DNA of 64,000 nucleotides from the human T2T-CHM13v2.0 reference genome, Homo sapiens (GCA_009914755.4 CP086569.2:23744001-23808000), one strand, 5' to 3'. Shown: positions 1-28,502, numbered from the stretch's first letter. The notes: generated by a model not told the origin, from the sequence alone. Made by a program: numbers and translations.

Positions 1-3000
1 AATCACTGTGACATATCACTGTGTCAACAACTTAGGTCACATAAATCTCCTCATTAGAATGGTCCCTGTGCACTGTCAGGGGCAGTAACATACAGTTGGG
101 CCAGGCACAAAGCTGATGATACTCTTTTGCTAGGGCCATGTCCTAAAAAGGGCATTATGACAAATTTCTGGGTCTTCACATAGGGGATTTTGCTCTACCG
201 CTTGGGTCATGCTTACCTGTATAGTGACATGTTGCTAGGCTAGGCACAAATGTATTGTTATTCTTTCACCAGGGCCAAGTCTCAGGGGGATATTGTGAAA
301 TATCTCTGGCCCTATCACTTAGGTGATGTGACTCCCTGCCTGGGTCCTGCCAACATAGAGCATTGAAACATAGGGGCAAAAACTGCACCTATTTGCTCTA
401 ACTCTCTTGCCTGGGTCCTGTCCTAAGGGGACCTTGTGAGATAGCTCAGAATCCAGCATCAACGTGATGTAGCTCTTTTGCCTGCTTTCACCCCACATGT
501 AAGACTGTGTCATATACCTAGGGAAGCACCTATATGATATGTGTTATGACTCTTCTCTTCTGCTTGAGCCCTGCCTACTTGGAATATTTGGCCATATATC
601 TGAGCTCCTGTCCTAGGTGATGTGACCCTGCTTTTCTGCCAGAGACTTTACGATGAGGTAATGTGAAATATTGCTAAGCTTGATACTTAGGAGATATGAC
701 TCTTCCTTTTTTCCCAAACTGTGCCCGTGAAAAGGAATTCTGACATATTGCTGGGCCCAGCACCCAGATGATGTTCCTCTGCTGCCTTGGTCCTTCACAG
801 AGAATTATGGCATACAGTTGGGCCCCCAACCCCGATGATGTAAGTTCCTGCCTGTGCCACAGCAACAGAAAGTATTTTAGCATATCTTGGTCCCATGTTG
901 TAGGTGTGTTTGCTCTCATGATTTATCTGTTTTTCTTCCATATTCGGGATTGTGTTATATTGCTGGGTCTAGCACCCAGTTAATGTAACCCCCATTTCTA
1001 CACCCTGCCTAGAGAGGGCATTGTGACACATTGCTTGGCACAATACCTAAATTGTGCTACCTTCTTGTCAAGTTTTTTCCTACAAATTGGATTATTAAAT
1101 TTACATTCCTTCTATTCAGAGGGATGATGGTCAAATTTTAATTGGGATTACACCAATAATAGATATGTTGCCTCTCATCACTATGCTTATGGCAATAGGT
1201 AAGGTTATGAGTTGCATATTTGTACAAAACTCACAGAATGTTACAACACTAACTCATATTCTATAAACTTATTAGGACAGGGCCCAGCAAAAGGTTAAGA
1301 TCATGATTCTTGGTTTCACATGCAGGTGAGAGCAAAAGTTATCACCATCCCACATTTACAGAGGCCACTGTCAAAGTACTGAGTATAACAAGTAAATAAA
1401 GAACAAAGATGGAATTTTGACTTTCATATATGGATCTTGCTACAGATGAGATGGTGGCTCATTTCTGGACCCAGATCACAGGCATAATAATCAGTCTCCC
1501 ATCTGAACCCAGTCTATAAGAGAGATGCTGACTATCATAACTGGGTTTAAAGCAGTATATAAGATTATGAGTCAATACGAGCATGTATGCCTTAGAGTAG
1601 GTTGCTACTCTTATGCATGTTGCATAAAGCCTTCGGATGCTGCAGAATGTGTCATACGATGATCTAGAAAACACATGAGATTGTGACTCTCACATACACA
1701 CCAAGCTAGCCCTTAAAGGTGTCACCCTAAAAGATGAAGAGATTGTGTCATATCTCTAGGCCCAGTACTCCTAGGTGTTGAGAATTTTCGGCTTAAATTC
1801 TTTACCATGGGTGCATTGTGACACATCACTGGGTTAAAATGATGAAAAGGTGACTCTTCCGCTTGGACCCTGGCACCAGGGGATATTATCACATATCTCT
1901 GGGTCTATCAGGTAGGTGATGTGTCTCTCCTCCCAGTGCCCTGCCCACAGGGGACACTGTGACATATTGCTAGATACAACATCTAGATAAAGCGAATCTC
2001 CTCTGCTGCCTGGATCCTGCCCACTGAAGAAATTGTGACATACCACTGAGTATAAAACCTAGATGATGTGACAGTACCCTTTGTTATGTACTCTGTCAAG
2101 AGAGGGAATTTTAATATGTTGTTGAACATGGCACCTGGAGGTGTGACTATCCACTATTTTTTCAACCATGTATACAGTGGGCATGATGACATATTATTTG
2201 AGATTGTACCCAAGTGATATAAGCCTCCGGTCTGGGTTGTGCCTACAGAGGAGATTATAAGGTATGCCTGGCTAAGGACCCAGATGATGTGATTCTACTG
2301 TCTTGTCTCTGCCCAAACATAAAATTGGGACTTACTCATGAAATCAGTTCATATGTGTAACAAAAACTTTCAAACGTTGACGCAGCCAAGGGAGATATTT
2401 TGGTTCTCGTTGCCAGTCTTATGGCCATGGATAAATTCTGAGACCTCCCACCTGTAACAATTCACAGAAAACTGTGCTACTCAGGTATATCACATAAATC
2501 ATGAGTGGTACAAAGAGTTTCATAACAGGCACCAACAACCAGGTGCTATTTTGAGTCTTGGATGCACACCCAGCTGACACGATTTTCATTCTCATACATA
2601 AACAGAGCCTACAAATGAGGTACTAAATTTCACACACATAAGCAGTTGAAATCTTAAAATTGTAACTCTCATACATGAATCTGATCCGCAGTTGGTTTGG
2701 TGGCATTTGAACGATGATTCAGCAAGCCTGTGGTGCTTTGAATCTACTAGTGGAGCACAATCTTCAAGTGGGATTGGGGCTCTTATACATGCATCTTGCC
2801 CATTGTTGAGACTCTGATGTCTGTACTTCGACCCAACTCACAGGAGATGTTGACTCTTACACCCGAAGGCAGGACTTGTGTGGGACTATGAAATGTATTT
2901 CTGAACATTTTCGAGTGTGTGCTTTAGAAGTATGACTTTGCCCAGTATCTGACTGTTTTGAATCTCCTTTCTAGGCCCACAGCACAGTTCGGATTGTGAC

Positions 3001-4799
3001 ATATGTGTGCTAAGCACCTAAGCAATATATGATATCTTCTTTGGCAGAGGGACCAAGGACATCTTTACATATCCCTGAAAGAAGCACCCAGCTGATGCAA
3101 AACCTTGGCCGGAAGCTTGCCTACAAAGAGCACTGTGGCTTTCATCAAGGTCCATCATATAAGTGATGTGACTTCCTTCTACTGCCTTGGCCTTGCACTT
3201 CTAGTGCATTGTTACACATAACTGGGTACTGCACCCATGTGATGGGACCCTTTGTTTGGAGGGGGTAGATTCTACCAATATAAAAACTGTATAATATATC
3301 ACTTGGCTCAGCACCTAGGTGATGTTTCTTCTCTCTTGACTGAGCCCTGACCACCAGAGAGATGGTGACATATAGGTGAAACCAGCACAAGGTGAGTTCA
3401 CTCTCCTGCCTTGGTCATAAACATAGGGGCCATTGTGACATATACCCAAGCCAATTGCCTAGGTGAGGTTTGTGTCCTCTCCTGCCTAAGCCCTGCCCAC
3501 AGGGGGTTTTAGATATATCACTGAAACCAACATCCGGGTTAAGTGACTCTTCTTCTAGAGGCCTGTACACAGCAAGGATTGTGACATTCAACTAGACAAG
3601 CATCCACTCAGGTGATGAGAATTTCCTTTTTTCTCCATGTTCACAGGTTATATTGTGTCATATATGTGAGAGCAGATCAAAGGCCTAATAACGACCATTG
3701 CACCTGGAGCCTGAAACTTTTTATAGGTGTTATTGTGACACTTTCCTTTGCCAATCTCCTGAGTGATTTAATAATCCTACTCAGTTATAGCTAACAGATG
3801 ACATTTTGACATATACCTGGACAAAAGCGTGATGATTTGACTCTCATGTTTTAACAGTGTCCTCAGAAGGGATCATAACATATTGCTGGATTCATCCTCT
3901 AGGTTGTGTGTCTCTCCTCTCCTGCCTGAATCCTGATTCTAGTGAAGATTTTAGCATTTCTATGCACTGGATCCAAATGACACAATTCTATTGCATGGGC
4001 CCTTTTCAACAGGAGGCATTGTGACATATCTCTGGGGCCATGATTTAGGTGACATGACTCTACTCTCCTTCCTGGGCATTCTCCACAGGGGTATTATGCC
4101 ATAGGGCTTTGCTTAAAACCCAAGTTTTGTGAATTTTCTGTTAGTGTCTTGCCTTCAAAGAGAATATTGGAATAATTCTGACTTAAAATTTAGGTGATGT
4201 GACTGTCCTGTCTGTTTAATAACCACAGAGGTAATGATGACATTTACCTAGGTACAGCTAACAGGCATGATAATGACTCTAATATGGGAACCCAGGCAAT
4301 AAGGTAAATTTTGACTTTTGTCACAAGATTTTGAGACATGAGTGATGTTAAGGACCTTCATCTGGTAAAAAGCTCACAGAAAATCATAACAAACACACAT
4401 AATTTATAACAACCTTGGGTTATATAGAGTGTCATAATAATGCCTAGCAGACAGAGAAAACTATGAGTCTCATATGCACACCCAAATAACAGTAAGGGCT
4501 TTCAACATCAAAGATGAATGAAAGCAACTATCCTACATAAAAAGAGGACATGTGTGGCATTGTAAATCTAATTCCTAGAATTTAATTCCATTGTGAATGT
4601 GATATAAATCTTTCCCAAGCACCTGTGTAATTTCACTCTTCAGATTGGGTCCAGCCTATATATGGAATTTTGATATCTACCTGGGCCAATTTTCAAGTGA
4701 TGTGACACTTCCGCCTGGGCTGTGCTCTCAATAAGAATTGTGACATCACTGGATCCAGCACCCAGGTGATGTTACATTCTTGCTGCACTATGCCCACCC
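1..4799. repeat. Beta satellite (BSR, Sau3A 68-bp family) tandem array, reverse-complement orientation relative to the conventional consensus
   Basis: Tandem ~68-73 bp units carrying the motifs attgtgacatatc and ccaggtgatgtgactctcctgcc...ctgcccacagg, which match the reverse complement of the beta-satellite monomer. Divergent-monomer blocks at about 1080-1830, 2290-3000 and 4240-4700. Confidence 0.85.
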
Positions 4800-5770
4800 C
4801 CGATAATTCAATGTTATTTCACGTAGGTTCTTTTCTATTTCCCTAAGTGTTGGCTGGTCTGAGAAATAAAGGGAAAGAGTACAAAAGAGACAAATTTTAA
4901 AGCTGGGTATCCGGGGGAGACATCAGACGTCGGCAGGTTCCCTGATGCCCCCTGAGCCATAAAACCAGCAAGGTTTTATTAGCAATTTTCAAAGGGGAGG
5001 GAGTGTATGAATAGGGTGTGGGTCACAGAGATCACATGCTTCAAGGTCAACAAAAGATCACAAGGCAGAAGGTCGGGGTGAGATCATGAGATCAGGGCAA
5101 GATTAGAATCACTAATGAACGTCCATGTCCAGCTGTGCACGCATTGTCATCTTAACAGGGTTCAAGGGCAGAGAACCGGTCTGACTAGATTTTGCCAGGC
5201 TGGCATGTCCTAATCCTAGCACGCCTGGGGATGCTGCTGGAGACTAGGGTGTATTTCATCCCTATCTATATCTGCATAAGGCAGACACTCCTAGGGTGTC
5301 CATTTTAGATGTTCCCCCCTGGGAATGCATTCTTTTCCCAGGGCTGTTAATTATTAATATTCCTTACTGGGGAAAGAATTCAGCGGTATTTATCTTACCC
5401 GTTTTCAGTAATAAGAGAAATATGGCTCTGTCCTGCCCAGCCCACAGGCCGCCAGACTTTAATGTTATCTCCCTTGTTCCCTGAAAATCGCTGTTACCCT
5501 GTTCTTAAGGTGCCCAGATTTCATATTGTTCAAACACACCTGCCCTACAAACATTTTGTGCAGGTAATGCAATCATCACAGGGTCCTAAGGTGACATACA
5601 TCCTCAGCTTATGAAGATGATGGGATTAAGAGATTAAAGTAAAGGCAGGCATAGGAAATTGTAAAAGTATTGATTGGGGAAGTAATAAATGTCCATGAAA
5701 TCTTCACAATTTATGTTCTTCTGCCATGGCTTCAGCCAGTCCCTCTGTTCGGGGTCCCTGATTTCCCTCA
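4800..5770 (-). mobile_element. Solo LTR inserted into the satellite; MER11-like (HERV-K HML-8 family) by motif recognition; ~970 bp
   Basis: The minus-strand reading begins TGTTGAGGGAAATCAGGGACCCCGAACAGAGGGACTGGCTGAAGCCATGGCAGAAGAAC and contains AATAAAACCTTGCTGG (polyA signal). The whole segment is absent from the paralogous satellite position (~49880), which delimits it as an insertion. Confidence 0.45.
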
Positions 5771-8700
5771 ACATCATTGTGACATTTCACTGTGTCCATC
5801 ACTTAGAAGAGGATGCCAGGGTCATGTAACAAGAGGGCATTTTGACATATCATAGGCCTATCATGTAGGTGATATGGCTCTTCTGCTTGGGACCTGCCCA
5901 CTTGAATAGTGACACATTGCCAGGCCAGGCACAAAAGTGATTGTACTCTTTTGCCAGGGCCATGCTTTAAAGAAGGCTTTATGACATATCTCTGAGCCTA
6001 TCACCTAGATTATATGACTTCTTGCTTTGCCTTGTCCACATGGATCTTTGTGATATAAGGGTGGAATCTGCACCTAGGTGATATAACTCTCTTGTCTGGG
6101 TCCTGTTCTAAGGGGGACTTATGAACATGTCAGGGCCCAGGACCAGATGATGTGGCTCTTTAGCCTGGTTTCTGCCCACATATTAATTTGTGATATATGC
6201 AAAAAGAAGCACCTATGTAATATGACTCTCTCTTTCTGCCTGAGCCTTGGCTACTTGTGACATTGGGCCATATCTGAGCCCATCATGGAAGTGATGTGAA
6301 TCCCTTCTGCTGCCTGGGTCCTTCATTTACAGTGCACTGTGACACAGAAGTGGGTACTGCACACAGGTGATGTGATTCTCCTTTTTGGGTTCTGCCAACA
6401 GGAAGTGATGTAACACATCACTTGGCTCAGCATGTAGGTGATGTTTCTTCACTTTTGCTTAGGCCCTGACCACACGGAGATTGTGGCCTGTTGCTGGACC
6501 CAGAAACAATGTGAAGGCACTCTCTAACATTGGTACTGCACATCAAAGACATTGTGAGACATATCTAGATAAATTCCTTAGGTCAAATGAGTGTCCTCTC
6601 TTGCTACAGTCCTGCCCACAGACGGGATTTGGATATGTCACTGCAGTCAGCATAAAGGTGATGTGGCTTTTCTGCCAGGGTCCTGCCCAGAAGGTGGATT
6701 GTGACATCTCACTGGTGCCACCTCCACATAGGTGACGTGACTTTCTTGCCTTCTCTATGGCCACAGTTGATATTATGCAATATACCAGAGAAAATTACAA
6801 AAGTCTAATAACAACTCATATGCCTGGTAATTGTGACAAGTACTTTTGCCCAGCTGCTGACTGACTTAGTATTTCTGCCTCTGTATAGCCCATAAATGAG
6901 ATTTTGACAAATAACTGTGCCGCACATATTAATGATTGCTTGTGTTATCTTAACAGTGTCCGCAGGGGGGAATTGTTAACATATTTCTGGACACATATTA
7001 TAGCTTACATGCCTCTCCTTTCCTGCCTGGACCCTGCTTCCTTTGGTAATTGTAGCTTTTCTAAACACTGTATCCAAATGATATGAATTTCTTGCTTGGG
7101 CCCTGCCAAAATGAGGCACTGTGACATATATTTGGGCCCACGATTTAGGTCATATAACTCTCCCCTCCTGCCTCGATACTGCTACAAATGACATTGTACC
7201 ACATAGCTGAACCTAGAACACAAGTTATGTAAAATTTCTGACAGTACCCTGCCTATTAAGAGAATATTGAAATATTTCTAGCCCAGTATTTAGGTGATGT
7301 GGCTGTTCTGCCTGCTTCATAACCACAGAGGGAATTGTAGCATATACTAGGCATGGCTCACAGGAATTATGACTCTCATATGTGGGCTCAGCCAATAGAA
7401 AATATTTTGACTCATAACTAACTTTAGGGACATGCGTGATGTCTTGGATCTCCTTTTTCTGCAAAGATCACAAGAGATTACAACACTCCACATATTTTAC
7501 AAGGTCTTTAGTTTATACAGACAGCATCAAAGCAGGGCTTGGCACACAGGTGAAATTGTGAGTCCTGTATACACACCGAGCCGTGTGTAAGGACTGTCAT
7601 TATTTCACAAGGATTAAGCCAGTTGTCACACATAAAAGCAAGATGTGTGGTATTGTAAATCTCACCTTTGGAATTTTCTGAAAATGTGATTTTGATATAA
7701 ATTTTTGCCAAGCTCCTGTGTAATTTGAGTCTCCAGGGTGGTCCTAGTCCATATATGGGATTCTGATATCTACTTAGGCCAAACTCTAAGTTATATGACT
7801 CTCCTTCATAGGCCCCTCTCTCAGTAAGGATTGTGATATATCACTGGATCTAGCACCCAAGTAATGTTACATTCTTGCCTGTGCCATGCCCACCCAAATT
7901 ATAGTGACATATTTCTGTGTCCACCTCATAGGTGATGTAACTCCTTTCTCTGGAATGGGCCGTGCACAAAGGAAGGATAGTGACATATTGCAAGGCCAGG
8001 CCCACAGGCAAGGATACTCTTTTGGCAGAGCCTTGCCCAAAGGAGGGCATTTTGACATAACTCTGGACCTATCACCTAGGAGATGTGGCTCTCCTGCTTG
8101 GGACCTGCCAACCTCGAGGTGAAATATTTCTTGGCCATGCACATAAGTAGTAGTACTCTTTTGCCAGGGCTATGCTTCATAGAGGACATTGTGATATATC
8201 TCTGGACCTATCTCCTAGGTGAAGTGACTCCTTTTTTGGGCCCTACCCACATGGAACATTGTGGCATAAGCAGAGAAACTGCACCTAGGTGATGTAGCTC
8301 TCTCTGCTGGGGGCTGTTTTAAGAGAGCCTTGTGCTATATCTCAGGACCCAGCACCCAAGTGATGTGGCTATTCTGCCTGCTTTCTGACCACATATTACC
8401 TGTGACATATTCCATGGAAAGAACATAAGTGATACGGCTCTTGTCATCTGCCTGAGTCCTGCATCCTGGGGACATTGTGACATATCTCTGAGCCCATGAC
8501 CTAAGTGATGTGACTCTTTTTCTGCCTGGGCATTCACAGTAGGAGGATTTGGGCACATTACTAAGCCCAGCACTCACAATATGTGACTCTCCCTTTTTTC
8601 CTGAATTATGCCACAATAAATGAAATTTTGACCTATTCCAGGGTCCATAGCCCAGATGATGTCACTCTACAACCTTGGTTCTGCATAGAGAGAAAATTAT

Positions 8701-9423
8701 GACATATGGCATATTGCTGGGCCAAGCACCCTTATGATGTGACTCTCCTGCCCGTTCTTGAGCCAATGAAGGTATTTTGACATATCTTAAGTCCATTATC
8801 TAGGTGTTTTGGCTCTCATAACTTGACTGGGTTTTTTCTGCATGTGGGATGGTGTCATAATGATGGGTCCAGCACCCAGTTAATTTGACCCAATTTCTTA
8901 TACCAGACATGGAAAAAGCATTGTTACATATTGCCTGGCAAAGCGTCTAAGTGATGTTACCCTTCTGCCTAGTTTTTTGCTCATATATGGGATTATGACA
9001 TATGCCTTTCTTCAGTTCACAGGCATAATGATTAAACTTATATTTGGATTCAGCCAATTAAAAAATCTTTTGCCTCTCAGTGTTAGGCTTAGGGCAATAA
9101 GTAAGGTCCTGGGTTGCATATTTTTCCAAGCTCACAGAAGTCTACAACACTAACTTATATTGTATAAACTCTGCTGGTAGAGAGCTTTATAACAGGGCCT
9201 GGCAAAAAGTTCAGAATGGGACTCTCATTTACACACCCAGATGAAATTAAAAGTTGTCACCATCCCACATTTATAATGCCCACTGTAGAAGTTCTGAGTC
9301 TAATGAGGGAATACATCACAAATTTGAAATTGGACCTTTTTTTTTTTTATTTGGATCTGGACACAGATGGGATGGTGACTTATTTCTGAACCGAGCCCAC
9401 AGGCATAATAATAGGTGTTCCTG
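5771..9423. repeat. Beta satellite array (continuation)
   Basis: Same 68-bp monomer family and orientation. Paralogous to 49900 onward in the right-hand array. Confidence 0.85.
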
Positions 9424-10330
<907 letters not shown>

Positions 10331-10693
10331 CTCCTCTCTATGCAAGAGTATATGTTTGTGCTGCATTCTATTTCATTACTTCGTATTCTACCTTTATTCT
10401 ACCAGTGCCAAAGTGCTTTGATTACTCTAGATTTTTGTATGTGTGTGTTTGGAAATTATTATGTGTAATGCTTCTAATATTTTTCTTCTTTTTAAAGTTT
10501 GTCAGGCTTTCCGTGGTCCCTTAAGATCTTACATAATTTTGTGAATTTTTTTCTATTTTTGGAAAACTCAAATTTAAAACTGAAAAGGGTCATGTTTTAT
10601 ATGTGGGTTACATTAAGCCACGAAGAAGCATGGACACATCACAATATTATGTCTTCCAACTCTTAAGAAGAGCATGCTCAAAATGTGTTGTTG

Positions 10694-11012
10694 GCCAGGT
10701 GTGGTGACTCATGCCTGTACTCTCAGCACTTTGGGATGCTGAGGAGGGTGTATGGAGACTTCAGGATATTGAGACCATCCTGGACAACATGGTGAAACCC
10801 TGTCTCTACTAAACTATAAAAAATATTTGTACTTTATGGTTGTGTGACTGTATTCTCAGCTACTCAGGAAACACGGTGGTTTGCATGCCTTTAATCCCAG
10901 CTACTCAAAAGGGTGAGGCTGGGGAACTGACTGAACCCGGGAGTTAGAGGTTGCAGTTAGCTGAGATTGTGTCAATGCCCTCCAGCCTAGGGACAGAGTG
11001 ATACTCCATCTC
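10694..11012 (+). mobile_element. Alu, diverged
   Basis: ggccaggtgtggtgactcatgcctgtactctcagcactttgggatgctgagg ... ctccagcctagggacagagtgatactccatctcaaaaacaaac. Confidence 0.8.
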
Positions 11013-11017
11013 AAAAA

Positions 11018-11020
<3 letters not shown>

Positions 11021-11064
<44 letters not shown>
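11021..11064. repeat. (AC)n dinucleotide microsatellite, ~22 units, abutting the Alu tail
   Basis: A pure acacac... run is visible directly in the sequence. Confidence 0.95.
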
Positions 11065-11069
<5 letters not shown>

Positions 11070-12532
11070 TTTCTCTGTTACGAATTTCTAGTTTTATTGC
11101 ATTTGCACTATAAATACTTGTAAAATTTTAATTTAAAAAATTATGAAGTCTTTTGTGGTGTCACACGTGGTCCACCTCACAAAATGATTTGTTAGCTATT
11201 GAAAAGAATGTGTGTTCAGTTTTCTATATATATTTGTTAGGTGTAATTATTGCATAGTGCATTCAACTTGTTCCTTCCCTTATTGATATTCTGTCTTGTT
11301 TTATTTATTCCTAAAAGCGGGATATTGATGTACCCTTCCATTATTATATTGCTGTCAATTTTGGCTTCAATTTTGTCAATGTTTACTTAATGTGTTTGAG
11401 AAAACTTTCATATATTTATAGATTCTCAGTGAATGATCTCTCTTACTAGAATTGAATGTCCTACTTGGTCTCTTGTAAATTGTCTTAAAGAAAATTTGGG
11501 GCGGTTCCAAGTGGCCGAATAGGAACAGCTCCAGTCTACAGCTCTCACATGAGTGATGACAAAGATGGCTGATTTCTGCATTTCCAACTGAGGTACCAGG
11601 TTCATCTCACTGGGGCTTGTCAGACAGTGGGTGCAGGACAGTGGGCACAGGTCACTGAGCATGAGCCAAAGCAGGGCGAGGCATTACCTCACCCAGGAAG
11701 TGCAAGGGATCAGGGAATTCCCTTTCCTAGCCAAGGGAAGCTATGACAGACATCACCTGGAAAATCGGGTCACTCCCAGCCTAATACTGCACTTTTCCAA
11801 TGGTCTTAGCAAATGGCACACCAGGAGATTATATCCCACGCATGGCTTGGAGGGTTCCACACCCATGAAGCCTCACTCGTTGCTAGCACAGCAGTCTAAG
11901 ATCAAACTGCAAGGTGGCAGCAAGGCTGGGGGAGGGGGATCCGCCATTGCTGAGGCTTGAGTAGGTAAACAAAGTGGCACAGAAGGTTGAACTGGGTGAA
12001 GCCCACCACAGCTCAAGGAGGCCTGCCTGCCTGTGTAGACTCCACCTCTGGGTGCAGGGCATAGCTGAACAACAGGCAGCAGAAACCTCTGCAGACTTAA
12101 AAGTTCCCATCTGACAGCTTTGAAGAGAGTAGTGGCTCTCCCAACAAAGAGTTTGAGATCTGAGAAAGGACAGACTGCCTCCTCAAGTGAGGCCCTGACC
12201 CCCAACTAGCCCAACAGGGAGGTACCCCCCAGCAGGGACAGACTGCAGCAGGGACAGACTGACACCTCACATGGCCGGGTATCCCTTTGAAATGAAGCTT
12301 CCAGAGGAACGATCAGGCAACAATATTTGCTGTTCAGCAATATTTGCTGTTCTGTCACCTCCACTGCTGATACCCAGGAAAACACGGTCTGGAATGGACC
12401 TCCAGCAAATACCAACAGACTTGAGGATCCTGACTGTTAGAAGGAAAACTAACAAACAGAAAGAACATCCACACAAAAACCCCATCTGTACGTCACCATG
12501 ATCAAAGACCAAAGGTAGATAAAACCACAAAG

Positions 12533-13284
12533 ATGGGGAAAAAACAGAGCAGAAAAGCTGAAAATTCTAAAAATCAGAGCACCTCTCCCCCTACAAAGGA
12601 ATGCAGCTCCTCACCAGCAATGGAACAAAGCTGGATGGAGAATGACTTTGGTGAGTTGAGAGAAGAAGGCTTCAGACTTCTCCAAGCTAAAGGAGGATGT
12701 TTGAACCCTCCACAAAGAAACTAAAAAACCTTGAAAAAAGATAAGACAAATGGCTAACTAGAATAACCAGTGTAGAGAAGTCCTCAAATGACCTGATGGA
12801 GCTGAAAACCATAGCACAAGAACTACACAATGAATGCAGAAGCTTCAGTAACTGGTTCAATCAACTGGAAGACAGGGTATCAGTGATTGAAGATCAGATG
12901 AATGAAATGAAGTGCAAAGAAAAGTTTAGAGAAAAAAGAGTAAGAAGAAATGAACAAAGCCTCCAAGAAGGATGGGACTATGTGAAAAGACCAAATCTAC
13001 GTCTGATTGGGGAGAAGGGAACCAAGTTGGAAAACACTCTGCAGGATATTATCCAGGAGAACTTCCCCAACCTAGCAAGGCAGGCCAACATTCAAATTCA
13101 GGAAATACAGAGAACGCCACAAAGATACACCTTGAGAAGACCAACTCCAAGACACATAATTGTCAGATTCGCCAAAGTTGAAATGAAGGAAAAAATATTA
13201 AGGGCAGCCAGAGACAAATGTCGGGTTACCCACAAAGGGAAGCCCATCAAGCTAACAGCTGATCTCTCAGCAGAAACTCTATAA
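12533..13284 (+). pseudogene. L1 ORF1p remnant (frameshifted)
   Basis: ORFs 12533..12724 (MGKKQSRKAENSKNQSTSPP...SWMENDFGELREEGF) and 12796..13284 (...RPNLRLIGEKGTKLENTLQDIIQENFPNLARQANIQIQEIQRTPQRY...IKLTADLSAETL) match the L1 ORF1p N- and C-terminal parts. They sit in different frames. Confidence 0.85.
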
Positions 13285-13589
13285 GCCAGAAGACAGTGGG
13301 AGCCAATATTCAACATTCTTAAAGAAAAGAATTTTCAACCCAGAATTTCATATCCAGTCAAATTAAGCTTCATAAGTGAAAGAGAAATAAAATCCTTTAG
13401 AGACAAGCAAATGCTGAGAGATTTTGTCACCACCAGGCCTGCCTTACAAGAGCTCTTGAAGGAAGCACTAAACATGGAAAGGAACAACTGGTACCAGCCA
13501 CTGCAAAAACATGCCAAATTTTAAAGACCTTCGATGATAGGAAGAAACTGCATCAACTAATGAGCAAAATAACCAGCTAACATCATAAT

Positions 13590-16500
13590 GACGGGATCAA
13601 ATTCGAGCATAACAATATCAACCTTAAGTACAAATGGGTTAAATGCTCGAATTAAAGACAGAGACTGGCAAATTGGATAAAGAGTCAAGACCCATCAGTG
13701 TGCTGTATTTAGGAGACTCATCTCACGTGCAGAGACACACGTAGACTCAACATAGATGGATGGAAGAAGATCTACCAAGCAAATAGAAAAAAAGGGGGGT
13801 GGAAGGGTTGCAATCCTGATTTCTGATAACACAGACCTTAAAACAACAAAGATCAAAAGAGACAAAGAAGGCTGTTGCATAATGGCAAAGGGATGAATTC
13901 AATGAGAAGAATTAACTATCCTAAATATATATGCACCCAATACAGGAGCACCCAGATTTATAAAGCAAGGCGTTAGAGACCTACACAGAGGCTTAAACTA
14001 CTACACAATAATAATGGGAGACTTTTTAACACCCCACCATCAACATTAGACAGATTAATGAGACAGAAAGTTAAAAAGGATATCCAGTAATAGAACTCAG
14101 CTCTGCACCAAGCGGACCTAATAGACATCTACAGAACTCTCCACCCCAAATCAACAGATATATGTTCTTTTCAGCACCACATCACACTTATTCCATAATT
14201 GACCACATAGTTGGAAGTAAAGCACACCTCGGCAAATGTAGAAGAGCAGAAATTATAAAAAACTGTCTCTCAGACCATAGGGCGATCAAACTAAAACTCC
14301 GGATTAAGAAACTCACTCAAAACTGCTCAACTACATGGGAACTGAACAACCTGCTCCTGAATGACTACTGTGTACATAAGAAAATGAAGGCAGAAATAAA
14401 GATGTTCTTTGAAACCAATGAGAACAAAGACACAACATATCAGAATCTCTGGGATACATTTAAAGCAGTGTGTAGAGGGAAATTTATAGCACTAAATGCC
14501 CATAAGAAATCATGAAAGATCTAAAGCTGACACCCTAACATCACTATTAACAGAACTAGAGAAACAAGAGCAAACACATTTAAAAGCTAGCAGAAGGCAA
14601 GAAATACCTAAGATCAGAGCAGAACTGAAGGAGACAGAGACACAAAAAACACTTCAAAAAATCAGTGAATCTGGGAGCTGGTTCTTTGAAAATATCACCA
14701 AAATTGATAGACTGCTAAGCAAGACTACTAAAGAAGAAAAGAGAGAAGAATCAAAGAGACACAATAAAAAGTTATATAGGGGATATCACAACCGATCCCA
14801 CAGAAATGGTAACTACCCTCAGAGAATACTAGAAACACCTCTATGCAAATAAATTAGGAAATCTAGAAGAAATGGATAAATTCCTTGACAAATACACCCT
14901 CCCAAGACTAAACCAAGAAGAAGTTGAATCCCTGAATAGACCAATAACAGACTCTGAATTTGAGACAATAATTAATCCCTATGAACAAAAAAAAGTCAAG
15001 GACGAGACAGATTCACAGCCGAATTCTGCCAGAGGTACAAGGAGGAGCTGGCACCATTCCTTCTGAAACTACTCCAATCATTAGAAAAAGAGGGAATCCT
15101 CCCTAATTCATTTTATGAAGCCAACAACATCCTGATACCAAAGCCAGCCAGAGACAGAACAAAAAAGAGAATTTTAGACCAATATCCCTGATGAACATCA
15201 ATGGAAAAATCCTCAGTAAAATACTGGTGAACCGAGTTTAGCAGCACATCAGAAAGCTTATCCACCACGATCAAGTTGGCTTCATCCAGGGGATGCAAGT
15301 CTTGTTCAACATATGCAAACCAATAAACGTAATACAACATATAAACAGAACCAAAGACAAAAACCACATGATTATCTCAATAGGTGCAGAAAAGGCCTTT
15401 GACAAAATTCAGCAGCCCTTCATGCTAAAAACTCTCAATAAATTAGGTATTGATGGGACGTACCTCAAAATAATAAGAGCTATTTATGACCAACCCACAG
15501 CCAATATCATACTGAATGTGCAAAAACTGGAAGCATTCCCTTTGAAAACTGGCACAAGTCAGGGATGGTCTCTCTCACCACTCCTGTTCAACATAGTGTT
15601 GGAAGTTCTGGCCAGGGCAATCAGGCAGGAGAAAGAAATTAATGGAATTCAATTAGTAAAAGAGGAAGTCAAATTGTCCCTGTTTGCAGATGATATGATT
15701 CTATATTCAGAAAACCCCATTGTCTCAGCCCAAAATCTCCTTAAGCTGATAAGCAACTTCCACAAAGTCTCAGGATGCAAAATCAATGTACAAAAATCAC
15801 AAGCATTCTTATACACCAATAACAGACAAACAGAGAGCCAAATCAAGAGTGAACTCCCATTCGCAATTGCTTGAAAAAGAAGAAAATACCTAGGAATCCA
15901 ACTTACAAGAGATGTGAAGGACCTCTTCAAGGAGCTCAAATCACTGCTCATTAAAATAAAAGAGGACACAAACAAATGGAAGAACATTCCATGCTCATGG
16001 ATAGGAAGAATCAATATCGTGAAAATGACCATACTGCCCAAGGTAATTTATAGATTCAATGCCATCGCCATCAAGCTACCAATGGCTTTCTTCACAGAAT
16101 TGGAAAAAATTACTTTAAAGATCATATGGAACCAAAAAAGAGACTGCATTGCCAAACGATCCTAAGCCAAAAGAACAGAGCTGGGGGCATCACACTACCT
16201 GACTTCAAACTATACTACAAGGCTACAGTCACCAAAACAGCATGGTACTGGTACCTAAATAGAGATATAGACCAATGGAATGGAACAGAGCCTTCAGAAA
16301 TGATACCACACAACTACAGCCAATTGATCTTTGACAAACCTGACAAAAACAAGAAATGGGGAAAGCATTCTCTATTTAATAAATGGTGCTGGGAAAACTG
16401 GCTAGCCATATGTAGAAAGCTGAAACTGGATCTCTTCATTACAGCTTATACAAAAATCAATTCAAGATGGATTAAAGACTTAAATGTTCTACCTAACACC

Positions 16501-17405
16501 ATAAAAACCCTAGAAGAAAACCTAGGCAGTACCATTCAGGACACAGACATGGGTAAGGACTTCATGTCTAAAACACCAAAAGCAATGGCAACAAAAGCCA
16601 AAATTGACACATGGGATCTAATCAAACTAAAGAGCCTCTACACAGCAAAAGAAACTACCATCACAGTGAACGGGCAACCTACAGAAGGGGAGAAATTTTT
16701 TGCAATCTACTCATCTGACAAAGGGCTAATATCCAGACTCTACAAAGAACTCAAACAAAGGTAAAAGCAAAAACAAACGACCTCATCAAAAAGTGGGTGA
16801 AGTATATGAACAGACACTTCTCAAAAGAAGACATTTATGCAGCCAACAGACACATGAAAAAATGCTCATCATCATGGCCAAAAAAGAAATGCAAATCAAA
16901 ACCACAATGAGATACCATGTCACACCAGTTAGAATGGTGATCATTAAAAAGTCAGGAAACTGCATGTGTTGGAGAGGATGTGGAGAAATAGGAACACTTT
17001 TACACTCTTGATGGGACTGTAAACTCGTTCAACCATTGCGGAAGACAGTGTGGTGATTCCTCAAGGATCTAGAACTAGAAATATCATTTGACCCAGCCAT
17101 GCCATTACCGGGTATATACCCAAAGAAGTATAAATCATGCTGCTATAAAGACACATGCACACGTATGTTTATTGTGGAACTATTCACAATAGCAAAGACT
17201 TGGAACCAACCCAAATGTCCAACAATGATAGACTGGATTAAGAAAATGTGGCACATATACACCATGGAATACTATGCAGCCATAAAAAAGGATGCATTCG
17301 TGTCCTTTGTAGGGACATGGATGAAGCTGGAAACCATTATTCTCAGCAAACTATTGCAAGGACAAAAAAAACAAACACCACATGCTCTCACTCATAGGTG
17401 GGAAT
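13590..17405 (+). pseudogene. L1 ORF2p (endonuclease-RT) remnant with multiple stops and frameshifts
   Basis: Starts atgacgggatcaaattcgagcataacaatatcaaccttaagtacaaatggg (MTGSNSSITISTLSTNGLNA). The ORF-track fragments 14162..14515, 15293..15874, 16126..16764 and 17099..17400 carry RT motifs (e.g. FADDMILY) and the C-terminal MEYYAAIKKD...SLIGGN-like end. Confidence 0.85.
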
Positions 17406-17689
17406 TGAACAATGAGAACACTTGGACACAGGATGGGGAACATCACACACCAGGGCCTGTCGTGGGATTGGAGATAGGGGGAGGGATAGAATTGGGAGAT
17501 ATTCCTAATGTAAATGATGAGTTAATGGGTGCAGCACACCAACATGGCACATGTATACATACCTACCAAACTTGCACGTTGCGCACATGTACCCTAGAAC
17601 TTCAGGTATTAAAAAAAGTAAATTTTATGAAATATCAGAGTTTTCAACTTAATAACTTGTTTCCTCTTTTCCACTCATTGGGTTAACAC

Positions 17690-20600
17690 TTACATGGAAT
17701 GTATTTCTCATCCTGTCATTTTCTGTCTTTTTTTAAATTAGATCTGAAGTGATTCTCTTGAAGACATGACATAGTTGATCTTAATATACATCATGATATA
17801 GTGAGAATTTTTTTTTTTTTTTTCGTTTTGAAGGTTACTTTTGCTGGGTGTGGTATTCTTGCTTAGACTCTTTTTTTCAGTGTTTTAACTATGTCATCCT
17901 GCTCCCATCTTGCCCAAAAAATTTATGTTCATAAATTTACTTGTAATCTTGCAGAAGCATGCATACAAATAACACATCTCTTTTATCTTCTTGCATTCCA
18001 GATTCTCTTCTTGTCTGTGAATTTCAAAATATTGTTTATGTTGTGTCTTATTAGAAATATTTTTGTGTTAATCTTCATTGTTATTTGCTGAGCTTCTTGA
18101 TTTCTTATATTTTTTACTAATGTTGAAGTCCATGTTAGTTTTTTTTTGGTACTTCTACTCTACAATTTTTATTTCTTTTTGTGATCTTTATCTTTGGTGA
18201 ATTCCTTTTTGTTATTTCATTTTTTATCTTTATTCTCATTTTCTCTTTCAGATGGTAATATTGATTTTTAGGGTAATTTTTTTCTTTTAAATATAGATCT
18301 AGACTTCAATTCAAATTATCACAGCTAATTTTTAAAACTCCATCTTTAAATAATTGTTTTCTGTATATTCCTTTTTATGTTTGATTGATCCATATTATCT
18401 TGATGTATTTCAATGTTTGCCTCACTGTCTAGGTGGGGAAGTTATCATGGATGATATTCCAAAATATGTATTTCAAGTTGTTTTCATTCCCCCCATCACT
18501 TTCAGGCACTCTCTTTAATCATGTATTTGGTTACTTTACATAATTAAATATTTCTCAGAGGTTTTGTTCATTTCTATTTATTCTTTTTTTACTATTCTTG
18601 TCTCTATTATTTCAGAAAGCCAGTCTTGAAACTCTGAAATTCTTTCTTCTGCTTAGCCAATTCTGCAGTAATATGTGTGAATAAATTATAAAGTTTTGTA
18701 TTCTGTTTTTCAGCTTTATCACACTGGCCACATTTTCCTCCAGATTGTTTGTTTTATCTGTCAGTTTCTGCAATTTTCCCTTCCTTGCATTGGTTTGCAA
18801 CTTACTTTTGTAGCTCAATGAAGCTTATTTCTATTCACATTCTGAATTCTATTTCTGTCTTCTTAGGTCTTGCTGGAAATGTAGGTTGGTTATTTGGATT
18901 AAATAAGTCACTCTAGCTTTTTTTTTTTTTCCCCAGCAGTTTTGCATTGATTTTGTCTCATCTTTGTAGGCATATATTTGAGGTTGCTGAACTTTGAATG
19001 AAGATTTTTTAATCATATTTTGATGTTCTTGAGTATCTGATTGTGGCATAAGGTGCTTTCATCCAACAGGCTTTGTTCTTGGGAGAAGTTTTTATTTTTT
19101 TATTTTTATTTTTTATATTTTTTGTGGAGGGGTTGGGGGAAGTGCTCAGCTCACAACTCAGAGGCTTCATACTCAGCGGGAATTGTATTGAGCCCCAACT
19201 CTCTTCCCTGTCTCTTTGATATTTGGAGTCTGCCACCCTGTTGGACTAAGTTTCTGCAGCTTCAGCAGAGTGCTAGTGGATATGGAGTTTCTGCCTGTCT
19301 TCACTTATTCATCTCAGTAGCAGGAGCAATGTAGCTGGGATGGGAGTAGGTGCACCTGCTGGAGACTGTGTGCTGTTGCAATAAATGTGGTGTTAGCATG
19401 TGGTAGGATGCTGACCAATGAAGGTTTGAAGCCTTCTTTTTGCCCCCTAAAGAAGAAGTGATTGTTCAGAATGTGGGAGGATACACTGTTCTCTGCACAG
19501 TGTTAGCATAAAGGTAGCAGTGAGTCTTTTTGGCTCTCTGCCCACCAAAGCTTTATCTACAATGGCAGCTGCTGGGTTGGCAGGAGCATACTGCATTCCC
19601 GTTTGCTAGTGGGCCAAGCAAAGCCAAATCTGCCTTTGAAGACATGTGCCAGTAAAGTAATATGAGGAGTTGCCATGTTTTCGAGGGAAAGTGCAGTGTG
19701 GGAAAGAAACATGTGGGCTGCTGCAGTCATAGGGGCTGCCTAGCTGTTGCTCTTCAGGAGTTATATGTGACCTACCAGTGCAGATGGTATGGTATGGGCT
19801 CTCAGTGTGCCTGAGACTGGCCTGTAAGGATCTGGGTGCCTGGGAGAGGCGGTAAACCACGGAGTGCTCAGTTAGACAAGCTTCTGATTTTCAAAGCTAT
19901 ATTACAGTAATTAGGTCCAACACTTCCCTAGGGCAAAACTCTCTTATGTGAAAAAGTTGCTGGTAGAGAAATGGCCATCACTGGCCACACCTTACTACAG
20001 ATGCCCTTGCACCAAACCCTCTGGTCACCACATAAGCTGGCTTGCTGCCCTACCTCTTTGCTGGTTTTCTGAAGGCTGCATCTAAGAGAGATGTAGGTCA
20101 GCAATCCCTCAGTACAGTCAGCCCATGATGAAAGATCTGTGATTTTGGTCAAGTTAGGGGTCAACTGTCTGGTGAGGAGCAGTGGGTAGTTTGTGGGACC
20201 CATGGTGAATGAACTGGCCTCCTCTCCTTGGGTAAACTGCAGCTTGTTTGATGTTTGAATAAGACACTCAGGGTTTTGGATTTTTCACTAGTCTAAGGGT
20301 AGCAAGGAAAGTTCTACTATAGAGGCAGTGGCAGAAATATTTTCAGTCGTTACTGGGGTCCCTGTCCAGGGAGTCGCTAAGTTGCTACTATCTCAATACC
20401 TCTGGCAGTGATTGGCTAGTGGCCCAGGCCTGGAGAACCTGTCCAGTGAGAATATATGAGAACAGGCACTCACATAACAGTATGGCCACTTTTCTGAAGG
20501 GCTGCCTCAGTATGCGAGGTGTCCATTGCCATTCCTAGTCACCTAAGATTTTCCAGTACTTGAAGTTACCACCACTGAATGTTGCTAAACTAAATAATTG

Positions 20601-21830
20601 CAGCGTGCCTTTTTTTTTCTGGGTGCTCAATCCCAGGGAGGTATAGACCTCTTTCCAACCCAATAGCACCTATAAGAGGTAGCTGGAATCCCTTGTTGAA
20701 ATTTCTTACTCAGTAAAGAGAACGTAATTGGGGAGCCACTTAAGAAAGCAGTCTAGCAACATTTTCATAGTACGTCTCTGCTGTGCAGAGGTACCACTTC
20801 CATCCACAGTTTATTTGGATTCTCCAAAGCCAGAAGGCTGGAACAGCCAAGTCACACACATAGGAAAAATTGCTGCTCACTCTTCCCTCTAGCAATTATA
20901 TCACAAAGAGGTTTCAAAATTCCATCGACCAAAGATCGTGGTCTTTGATCACAGCTACTACCAGTGGTGGTAGCTGCTCACTCTGGTTAGGAAGTCCTTT
21001 CCAGTTGCAAGAAATGAGATTGGGTACCTGATTTAACAGGCATTCTGGCCATGTCTTTTTAGAGCACCTATACTGTGCTAGGAGATTCTTTATTCCCCAC
21101 GTTAGCTTGGGCTTTTTAAAGCCTGAAGGCTGGAATGCCTAAGTTGCCCAAGCAGCTAAGGTGGTGTCCCACTCGACTTTCTGATAGCTCCATGCCAGGG
21201 AGGTCCAGTGCTGCTACCAATGGGCTGACCAGAATGCTAAGCCAATAAGTCTTACCCTGTGGGGCACTGTGGGCATGGGTCCTAAGACCTAAGACCATGA
21301 CTGGTCAGCCTCATGGATTCTGTCTCTTTTCTATGAATACTTACAGAAGTACAGATTCCTGCTTTACTGGAGTTGCAACTACTTTTTCTGGGAAGCCTGG
21401 AAAAACTGAGTACCTAAAGTTCTTGAATCTCTGCACAGGCCTCAGCAGCTGATCTCTGAGACTCCACGTAGCTCTGTGTGTTCAACTGAAGGCCTTGATG
21501 AAGCAGGTTCATGAATAGATCTCCTCACCTGAGGGTTGCAAAGATCTGTGGGAGAATCGTGGGTTCCCAGGGTCACACTTATACCCACTGCTTTATTGAG
21601 TGGGAATGTTTTCTTGGTTCCATGTTGTTCCCAGGTGGTTCACTGTCCTGCCTTGCTTTATTCCATTCTCCATAACTTAAGTTGTTTGATTTTTCCCAAT
21701 GCAAGCACCTGGGTGTTTCAGTTGAAGGTGATGTATTTATGCACAACTTGCATTCCTCTCTATGAGAACTACACAGACTAGCTGCTTCTCATCAGCAGTC
21801 TTGATCACTTTCCTATAACAGGGACCTAGT
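17690..21830. other. Degenerate, unclassified interspersed-repeat-like sequence (possibly old L1 fragments); no satellite periodicity
   Basis: AT-rich, with no long ORFs and no tandem periodicity. Some stretches are reminiscent of ancient L1 sequence, but I cannot classify them by eye. Confidence 0.2.
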
Positions 21831-23016: not shown

Positions 23017-23270
23017 CATTCTTTGGTGTGGGTGCAGTGGCTGACATCTGAAATCTCAGCACTTTGTGAGGCTGAGACAGGTGGATCACCAGAGACCAGG
23101 GGTTCAACACCAGCCAGGCCAACATACTGAAAGCCCATCTGTACTAAAAATACAAAAATTATCTGGGTGGGTGCGTGTAATCCCAGCTACACAGGAGGCT
23201 GAGGCAGAAGAATCACTTGAAACTGGGAAAGAGAGGTGGCAATGCACCTTCTGGAGCTGCAGGGTGGGCA
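23017..23270 (+). mobile_element. Alu fragment (3'-truncated)
   Basis: ggtgtgggtgcagtggctgacatctgaaatctcagcactttgtgaggctgagacaggtggatcaccag...gtaatcccagctacacaggaggctgaggcagaagaatcacttgaaactggg. Confidence 0.75.
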
Positions 23271-28318: not shown

Positions 28319-28502
28319 TTGGTGCCCACTCGAGGTTACCAAGTTCTGGGAGAAGTTGGGTCAAGCTGAGGTATTCTCATGGGACAACATTTATCAGCTC
28401 AACAGAAACAGTATATAAAAGTGTTGAAACAGTTGCTTAAGGCTAGTGGAGCATCAGTTTTGCAGGCTCAATTAGGGGACATAATGCAAACTGTTGTAAT
28501 CC

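What the first reader, a model, noticed from the sequence alone, without database searches (positions are those of the whole stretch)
1..4800. Multi-kb paralogy between the two satellite flanks (1-4800 versus 45110-49880; 44790-46185 versus 59870-61400 versus 1-1075)
Reading the sequence, the left array from its start reproduces block for block the order of divergent and canonical monomer blocks found in the right array, at an offset of about 45.1 kb. Marker strings such as caagttttttcctacaaattggattatt (1075 versus 46185) and ccagtcttatggccatggataaattctgag (2400 versus 47510) recur in the same order. A second register, 59870-61400, matches the same start. This implies higher-order repeat units of many kb, or a segmental duplication of satellite plus island, with irregular sub-periods of about 1.6, 3.6-3.7, 4.8 and 5.1 kb between related blocks.
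Basis: seen in the sequence. Interest (0 to 1): 0.5.

Follow-up and report, generated by a model that had tools for sequence, protein, structure and literature searches.

The report
Decayed multi-kb repeat in beta-like satellite
The two repeat-rich flanks of this primate window are remnants of one very old, beta-satellite-like tandem array whose ~4.7-kb units and ~15-kb blocks of units were copied long ago and have since decayed; it is a real but ordinary, non-coding fossil of satellite evolution.

Summary
Self-BLAST gives long direct alignments:
- 288-4797 vs 45388-49908 (76-77% identity)
- 25-3683 vs 60350-63995 (78%)
- 45347-48766 vs 60574-63995 (78%)

Monomers (~70-76 bp, not 68) average 57% identity to one another. 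Positional homologues between copies A, B and C are 79-81% identical, and shifting the register by one monomer abolishes the signal.

Both flanks tile, all on the + strand, with one ~4.7-kb composite unit made of divergent beta-satellite-like monomers plus conserved non-monomer blocks. The 1.6, 3.6-3.7, 4.8 and 5.1 kb sub-periods are truncated unit copies, one carrying an Alu. Above that lies a ~15-kb super-unit (B-D-E-F, then C). The left array is a deleted copy of it (A, D-like, E-like, F-like).

The 34-kb island holds an L1, an LTR12-type provirus and Alus, and shares nothing with the arrays except Alus, so it was not duplicated. There are no ORFs, no Pfam hits, no conserved sub-block, and CpG is depleted: neutral decay.

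Verdict: an ancient decayed higher-order tandem repeat, a known kind of structure. Low interest.

The parts
1..10343 (+). Left array: divergent beta-satellite-like monomers in ~4.7-kb composite units. A partly deleted copy of the ~15-kb super-unit.
   Evidence: The monomer HMM hits only 1-10343 and 45051-63975, and all significant hits are on the + strand. Tiling with unit B. Colinear chain to 45239-57339.
1..4797 (+). Unit copy A, cut by the window edge. Corresponds to unit B coordinates ~300-5113.
   Evidence: 76-77% identical to B and 78-79% to C. Positional monomer homologues are 79-81% identical.
4813..5772 (.). Copy-specific ~960-bp non-monomer insertion with TG...CA ends, a probable solo LTR. 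It sits at the A / D-like junction and is absent from the B/D junction.
   Evidence: Non-monomer gap 4797-5786 and sequence read. With it removed, the A-B alignment continues into 5814-6316 vs 50041-50547 (79.9%), differing by about one monomer. The LTR identity is inferred from the sequence only.
5787..6320 (+). Copy A'1, the paralogue of the start of D.
   Evidence: 79% to D against 71-75% to all other copies. Block bootstrap 0.99.
6280..7553 (+). Copy A'2, unit coordinates ~3452-4780. Paralogue of the end of E.
   Evidence: 6281-6774 vs 54769-55263 is 77.6%. 77% to E against 70-72% to others; bootstrap 0.93 on 470 columns.
7554..10343 (+). Copy A'', unit coordinates 99-2403, F-like. Interrupted by an Alu at 9419-9755.
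   Evidence: 7866-9406 vs 55256-56756 is 74.5%. Bootstrap for F as nearest copy is 0.94, but only 0.24 when E is included on fewer columns. Alu: two Metazoa_SRP-like arms. An approximately 15-bp target-site duplication is suggested by reading the alignment, and the site is empty in A, B, C and F.
10344..44687 (.). Island: not part of the paralogy. Contains:
- a full-length L1 (~11497-17700, + strand)
- an L1 ORF1 fragment (18435-18605, - strand)
- an LTR12-type provirus (~28500-36100)
- an L1 3' fragment (38843-39250)
- several Alus
   Evidence: Only Alu matches to either array. Pfam hits: Transposase_22, Tnp_22_trimer, RVT_1, Gag_p30, RNase_H. tblastn with the L1 translation. LTR tandem repeats.
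44688..64000 (+). Right array: ~108 bp of a unit tail, then contiguous units B, D, E, F and C.
44796..49917 (+). Unit copy B, the reference unit. The true period is ~4.67-4.7 kb, because unit 4683-5122 repeats unit 1-440.
   Evidence: 49576-50145 = unit 104-676; 4367-4797 = unit 5-440. B-C 78.1%.
49576..52035 (+). Unit copy D, truncated to unit 104-2561.
   Evidence: 70-72% identical to A, B and C.
52036..55255 (+). Unit copy E, unit 766-3909.
   Evidence: 72-73% identical to the other full copies.
55256..59516 (+). Unit copy F, unit ~290-4659, followed by an Alu at 59526-59831.
59871..64000 (+). Unit copy C, unit 1-3971, cut by the window end. It is the first unit of the next ~15-kb super-unit.
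   Evidence: 44796-45427 vs 59871-60514 and 45347-48766 vs 60574-63995. A-C 79%.
1096..1460 (+). Example of a conserved non-monomer block inside the unit (paralogues 46170-46534 and 61432-61816). Others in copy A: 1531-1750, 2332-2775, 4244-4614.
   Evidence: No match to the monomer HMM even at E<=1000, apart from weak edge hits. Three-way alignment has 87% mean column identity.

Best explanation
The two flanks are remnants of one ancient, non-coding, head-to-tail tandem array with three nested levels.

1. Highly divergent monomers of ~70-76 bp, related to primate beta satellite.
2. A ~4.7-kb composite unit of roughly 45-50 such monomers plus about 1.4 kb of non-monomer blocks. It was amplified in tandem first; these copies are now 70-73% identical.
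3. A ~15-kb block of four units (B-D-E-F) that was duplicated later, at least twice. These copies are now 75-79% identical: A~B~C, A'1~D, A'2~E, A''~F.

The inferred mechanism is unequal crossing-over or replication-based tandem duplication. After that the array stopped being homogenised and decayed neutrally. It accumulated substitutions (K2P 0.25-0.28 among A, B and C), CpG loss, monomer-sized indels and multi-kb deletions. It also received copy-specific Alu and LTR-like insertions. A 34-kb cluster of L1, provirus and Alu insertions, together with about 2.2 kb of lost array, now separates the left and right parts.

Shown: the paralogy, the register, the unit tiling, the hierarchy of identities, the copy-specific insertions, and the absence of coding or conserved sub-blocks.

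Inferred: the duplication mechanism, the former contiguity of the two arrays, and the age (tens of millions of years).
For: - Long direct alignments and dominant word-offset bins at 60.3, 15.2 and 45.1 kb.
- Monomers are 57% alike while positional homologues are 79-81% alike. The homologue is the best hit in 70 of 74 cases, and register shifts abolish the signal.
- A single unit tiles both arrays, and all 272 monomer hits are on the + strand.
- Identity hierarchy and block bootstraps: A/B/C 78-79%; A'1-D 79% (0.99); A'2-E 77% (0.93); A''-F 75% (0.94); all other pairs 70-73%.
- Left versus right forms a colinear chain that continues across the unit boundary.
- The Alu in A'' has a probable target-site duplication, and the site is empty in A, B, C and F.
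- The island shares only Alus with the arrays and is rich in transposable elements.
- Identity among A, B and C is flat at 71-84% per 200 columns where all three copies are in register (A position ~280 onward), with no conserved outlier.
- CpG observed/expected is 0.13-0.15.
- No ORF of 150 aa or more lies in the arrays, and the longest array ORFs have no Pfam hit.
Against: - The A''-F pairing is weak. When E is included on the shared columns, the nearest copy is ambiguous (E 0.51, F 0.24).
- The left array ends at unit coordinate ~2403 and the right array begins at ~4571. The island is therefore not a clean insertion, so former contiguity is not proven.
- Only about 1.3 super-unit copies lie in the right array and one deleted copy in the left. 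The ~15-kb periodicity rests on few copies.
- Large parts of the island (18-28.5 kb and 36-44.7 kb) could not be classified with these tools.
Confidence: 0.8

Rival explanations
1. Dispersed (non-tandem) segmental duplication. A ~10-15 kb piece of the right array was copied and pasted about 45 kb upstream, on the other side of pre-existing non-satellite DNA, so the island is original sequence rather than an insertion.
For: The unit coordinates do not join across the island: 2403 on the left edge against ~4571 on the right edge. Much of the island is unclassified.
Against: - Both arrays have the same orientation and the same colinear unit order.
- A, B and C are about equally distant from one another (76.6-79.4%). 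B and C are tandem neighbours at one super-unit spacing, so the simplest history is one tandem series.
- The recognisable island content is retroelements, which insert secondarily.
- No island sequence is duplicated.
Confidence: 0.13
2. The apparent paralogy is only the generic similarity of satellite monomers, that is, a ladder effect or chance.
For: Monomers of one family are present throughout both flanks.
Against: - Shifting the register by 1-2 monomers drops identity from 79-81% to 55-59%.
- Non-monomer blocks recur in the same order.
- There is no short-range periodicity at monomer lags 1-8.
- The offset bins at 45.1, 15.2 and 60.3 kb dominate the word-pair histogram.
Confidence: 0.01
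3. A functional macrosatellite or gene cluster, in which the units carry a conserved gene, ncRNA or regulatory module kept by selection.
For: The non-monomer block at 1040-1500 shows somewhat higher three-way identity (87% mean column identity; 81-83% pairwise).
Against: - No ORF of 150 aa or more lies in the arrays, and ORFs of 85 aa or more are not at paralogous positions and have no Pfam hits.
- No Rfam family reaches its gathering score.
- The identity profile is flat where the three copies are in register. The slightly higher values fall in AT-rich, CpG-poor stretches, as expected from slower neutral decay.
- Copies carry large deletions and truncations.
Confidence: 0.04
4. Assembly artefact: a falsely duplicated or mis-joined repeat.
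For: Short-read assemblers do confuse these copies. Metagenome contig L001 is a chimera of copy A and copy B.
Against: The copies differ by 21-24% and carry copy-specific Alu and LTR-like insertions and indels. False duplications are near-identical. L001 independently reproduces both A and B at 99-100% identity, so both exist in real DNA.
Confidence: 0.02

Closest known systems
Beta satellite (Sau3A family, BSR) arrays with higher-order repeats. Examples are pB3 and pB4 on chromosome 9 and the acrocentric chromosomes, and the beta-satellite higher-order repeats in the chimpanzee DUXY locus.
   Same: - Head-to-tail monomers of about 70 bp.
- The core ~57 nt of the window consensus matches the beta-satellite consensus as I recall it at 48 of 55 aligned bases.
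- Multimeric higher-order organisation attributed to unequal crossing-over (PMC8125562; PMC2671837).
   Different: - Period is 70-76 bp, not 68.
- Only 24 of 213 monomers contain GATC, and the GATCAGTGC block is absent.
- Monomers are 57% alike here, against ~69-75% in the DUXY blocks.
- Unit copies are 70-79% alike rather than near-identical.
- GC is 44%, against 47-50% reported.
Complex beta-satellite blocks between KRAB-ZNF duplicons in human 19p12 (Eichler et al. 1998, Genome Res 8:791). The paper is cited. Its details are recalled from memory, because the paper is not held.
   Same: Old, interspersed (not centromere-core) beta-satellite blocks of tens of kb with higher-order structure. 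As I recall, they were dated to early primate evolution, which fits the ~25% divergence seen here.
   Different: As I recall, the published blocks are inverted and symmetrical; here both arrays are direct. No zinc-finger motif occurs in the window. The chromosomal location of the window could not be determined.
Divergent alpha-satellite higher-order repeats (dHORs) and monomeric layers flanking active centromeres (T2T-CHM13; bioRxiv 10.1101/2021.07.12.452052).
   Same: [quoted passage not shown] There is accumulation of mutations, deletions and L1 or other transposable-element insertions once homogenisation has stopped.
   Different: A different satellite family. The unit here is composite, with non-satellite blocks. 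No inversions are seen.
Composite satellites, and beta satellites that carry ancient transposable-element fragments inside the repeat unit (section 7).
   Same: The unit contains about 1.4 kb of non-monomer sequence that was amplified together with the monomers.
   Different: The non-monomer blocks could not be assigned to any transposable-element family with these tools. No LSau-like element was identified.

Membership tests
Canonical beta satellite (Sau3A / BSR) | Tandem monomer of about 68 bp | tested here: not met
   Start-to-start spacing has modes at 70-71 (95 cases) and 74-76 (58 cases), with only 7 cases at 68. Autocorrelation peaks at 71 and 76. TRF reports no array.
Canonical beta satellite (Sau3A / BSR) | A Sau3A (GATC) site in nearly every monomer, and the conserved block GATCAGTGC | tested here: not met
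   GATC is present in 24 of 213 monomers. GCACTGATC/GATCAGTGC at up to 1 mismatch gives 11 window matches against 15 expected by chance, and none lies in a monomer.
Canonical beta satellite (Sau3A / BSR) | Sequence homology to the family consensus | tested here: inconclusive
   The window consensus aligns to a consensus recalled from memory at 48 of 55 bases over 57 columns, score 68 against a shuffle maximum of 23. Only the first 9 bases of the recalled string are independently corroborated. No reference library (Dfam/Repbase) is available, and a text search for the sequence found nothing.
Canonical beta satellite (Sau3A / BSR) | GC-rich (about 47-50%) | tested here: not met
   Monomers are 43.9% GC. 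Arrays are 42-43% GC with CpG observed/expected 0.13-0.15. This is compatible with decay from a GC- and CpG-richer ancestor, but that is an inference.
Higher-order repeat (HOR) organisation | Monomers within a unit are far more divergent than corresponding monomers in different units, in a fixed register | tested here: met
   57% against 79-81%. The homologue is the best hit in 70 of 74 cases, and register shifts give 55-59%.
Higher-order repeat (HOR) organisation | Units adjacent, head to tail | tested here: met
   B, D, E, F and C are contiguous on the + strand, as are A, A' and A''.
Higher-order repeat (HOR) organisation | High homogeneity between units (typically 95% or more in active HOR arrays) | tested here: not met
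   70-79% identity between unit copies. It is therefore a decayed, no-longer-homogenised HOR, comparable to divergent alpha-satellite HORs (dHORs).
Segmental duplication (conventional definition: at least 1 kb and at least 90% identity) | At least 90% identity over at least 1 kb | tested here: not met
   The best long pair is 78.1% and gap-free identity is 76.6-79.4%.
   The island shares only Alu sequence with either array.
19p12 ZNF-associated beta-satellite blocks | Blocks bound KRAB-ZNF duplicons and have inverted symmetrical structure | tested here: not met
   No C2H2 zinc-finger motif occurs in any frame of the window, and both arrays are direct. The genomic location beyond the window is not testable with these tools.
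Composite satellite / macrosatellite | A multi-kb unit that includes non-satellite sequence amplified with it | tested here: met
   Non-monomer blocks occupy the same unit positions in A, B and C and do not match the monomer HMM.

The most novel reading that the evidence does not exclude
The arrays could be a fossil of a proto-beta-satellite: a 71/76-bp monomer form, lacking the Sau3A/GATCAGTGC block, organised as a 4.7-kb composite unit and a 15-kb super-unit. On this reading it predates the canonical 68-bp hominoid beta satellite and would document how that family arose. It might also have served as a substrate for local gene-family or duplicon expansion.
Probability: 0.12. Interest if true: 0.4.

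Novelty: already known. Interest (0 to 1): 0.15.

Why it matters
Mostly as housekeeping. It also shows that the island is secondary transposable-element fill.

It flags a region where short-read assemblies switch between paralogues, as in the chimeric contig L001.

As a dated fossil it could help calibrate how beta-like satellites decay after homogenisation stops. Decayed higher-order satellite structure with transposable-element insertions is already well described, so a specialist would not be surprised.

Tried and rejected
- Exact and up-to-3-mismatch searches for the two marker strings found only the original sites. The paralogous sites differ at a few positions plus small indels, and were found by local alignment.
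- TRF finds no satellite array.
- Rfam at gathering threshold found nothing.
- A text search of the literature for beta-satellite consensus fragments found nothing. Waye & Willard 1989 and Eichler 1998 are not held.
- The metagenome scan with a unit motif returned one contig. It is a chimera of window copies A and B, not an independent paralogue.
- The bacterial and archaeal genome scan returned 5 hits. My own estimate is about 9 expected by chance for a pattern this specific. Of the five loci, only L002 was available to compare, and it has no similarity to the window.
- Dimeric or short-range HOR hypothesis (71+76 = 147 bp): rejected. Short and long spacings follow each other at random (0.48 observed against 0.49 expected), and identity at monomer lags 1-8 is flat at 57-58%.
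- Coding hypothesis: rejected.
- ZNF exons in the window: none.
- The bootstrap values printed with the NJ trees were mis-assigned after re-rooting and are not used. They were replaced by the column block bootstrap.


Full report
**Context.** The window is primate DNA.
- It carries dimeric 7SL-derived SINEs. Both arms of the element at 9424-9705 hit Metazoa_SRP below threshold, and the Alu sequence can be read at 10690-11015.
- It carries a full-length L1 whose 5' end lies near 11497. Pfam finds Transposase_22 and Tnp_22_trimer at 12796-13284 and RVT_1 at 15293-15874.
- It carries a gammaretrovirus-like provirus with Gag_p30, RVT_1 and RNase_H. It lies between two LTRs that contain LTR12-type internal tandem repeats (pair 28559-28996 vs 35638-36098). 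The LTR12 label rests on my reading of the repeat sequence.
- A low-coverage metagenome contig (L001) is 99-100% identical to parts of the window. The window's species is therefore a common host contaminant, most likely human. That attribution is an inference.

- Self-BLAST gives long direct alignments at the stated offsets: 287-3708 vs 45388-48791 (77.0%), 3711-4797 vs 48825-49908 (77.0%), 45347-48766 vs 60574-63995 (78.1%), 44796-45427 vs 59871-60514 (74.8%) and 25-3683 vs 60350-63995 (77.8%).
At k=14 the three most populated 100-bp offset bins are 60300, 15200 and 45100, with 162, 137 and 126 word pairs. All offsets below 400 bp together give 165. The refutation condition (ladder only) is not met.
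- The marker strings are exact only at 1069 and 2413 and have no other match within 3 mismatches. Their paralogous sites exist with a few mismatches plus small indels at 46174-46201, 61398-61424, 47522-47550 and 62758-62780.

**Is it more than satellite self-similarity?** Yes.
- I built a monomer profile iteratively from the window. The 73-position consensus is TATTTCTGGGCCCAGCACCTAGGTGATGTGACTCTCCTGCCTGGGCCCTGCCCACAGAGGCATTGTGACATAC.
- It finds 272 monomers, all on the + strand, and only in 1-10343 and 45051-63975.
- Any two monomers are on average 57.3% identical, and adjacent ones 56.7%.
- Positional homologues between copies are 78.9% (A-B), 80.8% (A-C) and 80.7% (B-C) identical. The homologue is the best hit within the target copy in 70 of 74 cases. 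Shifting the register by one or two monomers returns identity to 55-59%.
- Non-monomer blocks do not match the profile even at E<=1000. They recur at the same unit positions in all three copies.

**Anatomy.**
- Taking 44796-49917 (B) as the reference, both arrays tile with one unit.
- Left array: 288-4797 = unit 593-5113 (A). 5938-6323 = 557-946 and 6280-7899 = 3452-5119 (A'). 7554-9420 = 99-1824 and 9753-10343 = 1814-2403 (A'', split by an Alu).
- Right array: B; then 49576-52067 = 104-2561 (D); 52036-55234 = 766-3909 (E); 55519-59516 = 551-4659 (F, followed by an Alu at 59526-59831); and 59871-63995 = 1-3971 (C).
- Unit positions 4683-5122 repeat positions 1-440, so the true period is about 4.67-4.7 kb.
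D to E is ~1.64-1.74 kb, E to F ~3.5-3.7 kb, B to D ~4.7-4.8 kb, and F to C ~5.05-5.16 kb including the Alu (offsets).
- There is no shorter higher-order structure. The 71- and 76-bp spacings are mixed at random, and identity at monomer lags 1-8 is flat.

**A second level.**
- In a global alignment of all copy pieces, A, B and C are 78-79% identical. A'1 (5787-6320) is closest to D (79%), A'2 (6280-7553) to E (77%), and A'' to F (75%). All other pairs are 70-73%.
- Block bootstraps on identical columns support A'1 to D (0.99), A'2 to E (0.93) and A'' to F (0.94). The last falls to 0.24 when E is added on fewer columns.
- The best left-right matches form one colinear chain: 288-4797 to 45388-49908; 5814-6316 to 50041-50547; 6281-6774 to 54769-55263; 7866-9406 to 55256-56756; 9776-10349 to 56768-57339.
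- Once the copy-specific ~960-bp insertion at 4813-5772 is removed, the A-B alignment runs straight across the unit boundary into D, differing by about one monomer. The duplicated segment is therefore larger than one unit.
- With C restarting the B pattern 15.07-15.23 kb after B, this indicates a ~15-kb super-unit (B-D-E-F). The window holds about 1.3 tandem copies of it on the right and one internally deleted copy on the left.
- Relative to the right copy, the left copy lacks 50547-54769. Relative to the left copy, the right copy lacks the equivalent of 6774-7866.

**Decay and timing.**
- A, B and C are roughly equidistant: gap-free identity 76.6-79.4% and K2P 0.245-0.284.
- The identity profile is flat at 71-84% per 200 columns where all three copies are in register, with no conserved outlier. 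In the first ~280 positions of A, the B copy is out of register because of a ~138-bp indel.
- CpG observed/expected is 0.13-0.15.
- The Alu in A'' has a probable target-site duplication, and the site is empty in A, B, C and F. It therefore inserted after the amplifications. The window's Alus are themselves only 77-83% identical to each other.
- A naive clock (K/2 per lineage at 1-2.2e-9 per site per year) gives about 60-130 Myr. Faster CpG decay inflates this figure. I infer only 'tens of millions of years, before at least some old Alu insertions'.

**The island (10344-44687).**
- It shares nothing with the arrays except Alus, so it is not part of the duplication.
- Its recognisable content is retroelements.
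- The left array stops at unit coordinate ~2403. The right array starts with ~108 bp of a unit tail (~4571 onward) before B. If the arrays were once contiguous, about 2.2 kb was lost. Contiguity is therefore inferred, not shown.

**Function.** None is indicated.
- There are no ORFs of 150 aa or more in the arrays.
- ORFs of 85 aa or more are not at paralogous positions and have no Pfam hits.
- No Rfam family reaches its gathering score.
- There are no zinc-finger motifs.

**Comparison with known families.**
- The monomer core aligns to the beta-satellite consensus as I remember it at 48 of 55 bases, score 68 against a shuffle maximum of 23. The recalled string is only partly corroborated, by the published GATCAGTGC block.
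- The defining features of canonical beta satellite are not met. These are the 68-bp period, a Sau3A site in nearly every unit, the GATCAGTGC block, and 47-50% GC.
- I therefore call it beta-satellite-related and highly divergent, not a canonical member.
- The organisation meets the structural definition of a higher-order repeat, but not the homogeneity of active ones. It behaves like the divergent HORs described for alpha satellite, where periodicity is partly destroyed and transposable elements accumulate.
- Old beta-satellite blocks with complex higher-order structure are described for 19p12 (Eichler 1998, cited; details from memory). I could not place the window there. It has no ZNF exon, and its two arrays are direct rather than inverted.

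**Verdict.** The structure is a known kind of satellite fossil and is of low interest.

Noticed in passing
L001 (metagenome contig ERZ781270 NODE_12115, 1652 bp) vs window ~500-1450 and ~46600-47133: The contig is a chimera. About 950 alignment columns are 99-100% identical to copy A, and the last ~570 are 99-100% identical to copy B. The first ~150 columns match no window copy well (75-80%). This is host-DNA contamination in which a short-read assembler switched between the 77%-identical paralogues.
   Followed up: yes
window 11497-17700 (+): A full-length L1 whose 5' UTR starts near 11497 (ggggcggttccaagtggccgaataggaacagctcc). It has an ORF1 fragment of 162 aa (Transposase_22 and the trimerisation domain) and an RT fragment. 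A separate L1 ORF1 piece lies on the minus strand at 18435-18605, and an L1 3' piece lies at 38843-39250 (87% identical to 17218-17624).
   Followed up: partly
window ~28500-36100 (+): A provirus with Gag_p30, RVT_1 and RNase_H fragments. It is flanked by LTRs carrying LTR12-type internal tandem repeats (79-bp and 103-bp units at 28538-29287; 41- and 24-bp units at 35595-35861). An Alu is inserted inside it at 31765-32080. The LTR pair aligns at only ~80%, probably because of repeat-number differences.
   Followed up: partly
window 4813-5772: A ~960-bp insertion present only in the left array, at the A / D-like junction. It begins TGTTATTT and ends CTCAACA, so it is probably a solo LTR. No clear target-site duplication is visible and its family was not identified.
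   Followed up: partly
window 9419-9755 and 59526-59831: Two Alus inserted into the arrays at non-homologous unit positions (~1824 and ~4660). The first has a probable ~15-bp degenerate target-site duplication, and the site is empty in four paralogues.
   Followed up: yes
window 45239-45388 vs 1-288 and 60325-60610: Copy B is shifted by about 138 bp (roughly two monomers) relative to A and C near the unit start. As a result the A-B alignment at offset 45100 only begins at 288, and 1-212 instead aligns to 45239-45450 at 72%.
   Followed up: partly
window 27613-28143 vs 39923-40460: A direct repeat of ~530 bp at 80% identity inside the island, of unknown family. One copy lies just upstream of the provirus 5' LTR.
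   Followed up: no
window 11017-11065 and 41974-42076: Microsatellites: (AC)24 directly after the Alu at 10685-11015, and (AAAG)26.
   Followed up: no
window 9624-9683 (-) and 9556-9607 (+): Sub-threshold Rfam hits to mir-3135 and mir-1268 inside the Alu. These are Alu-derived miRNA families, so the hits reflect the Alu and not a miRNA gene.
   Followed up: no
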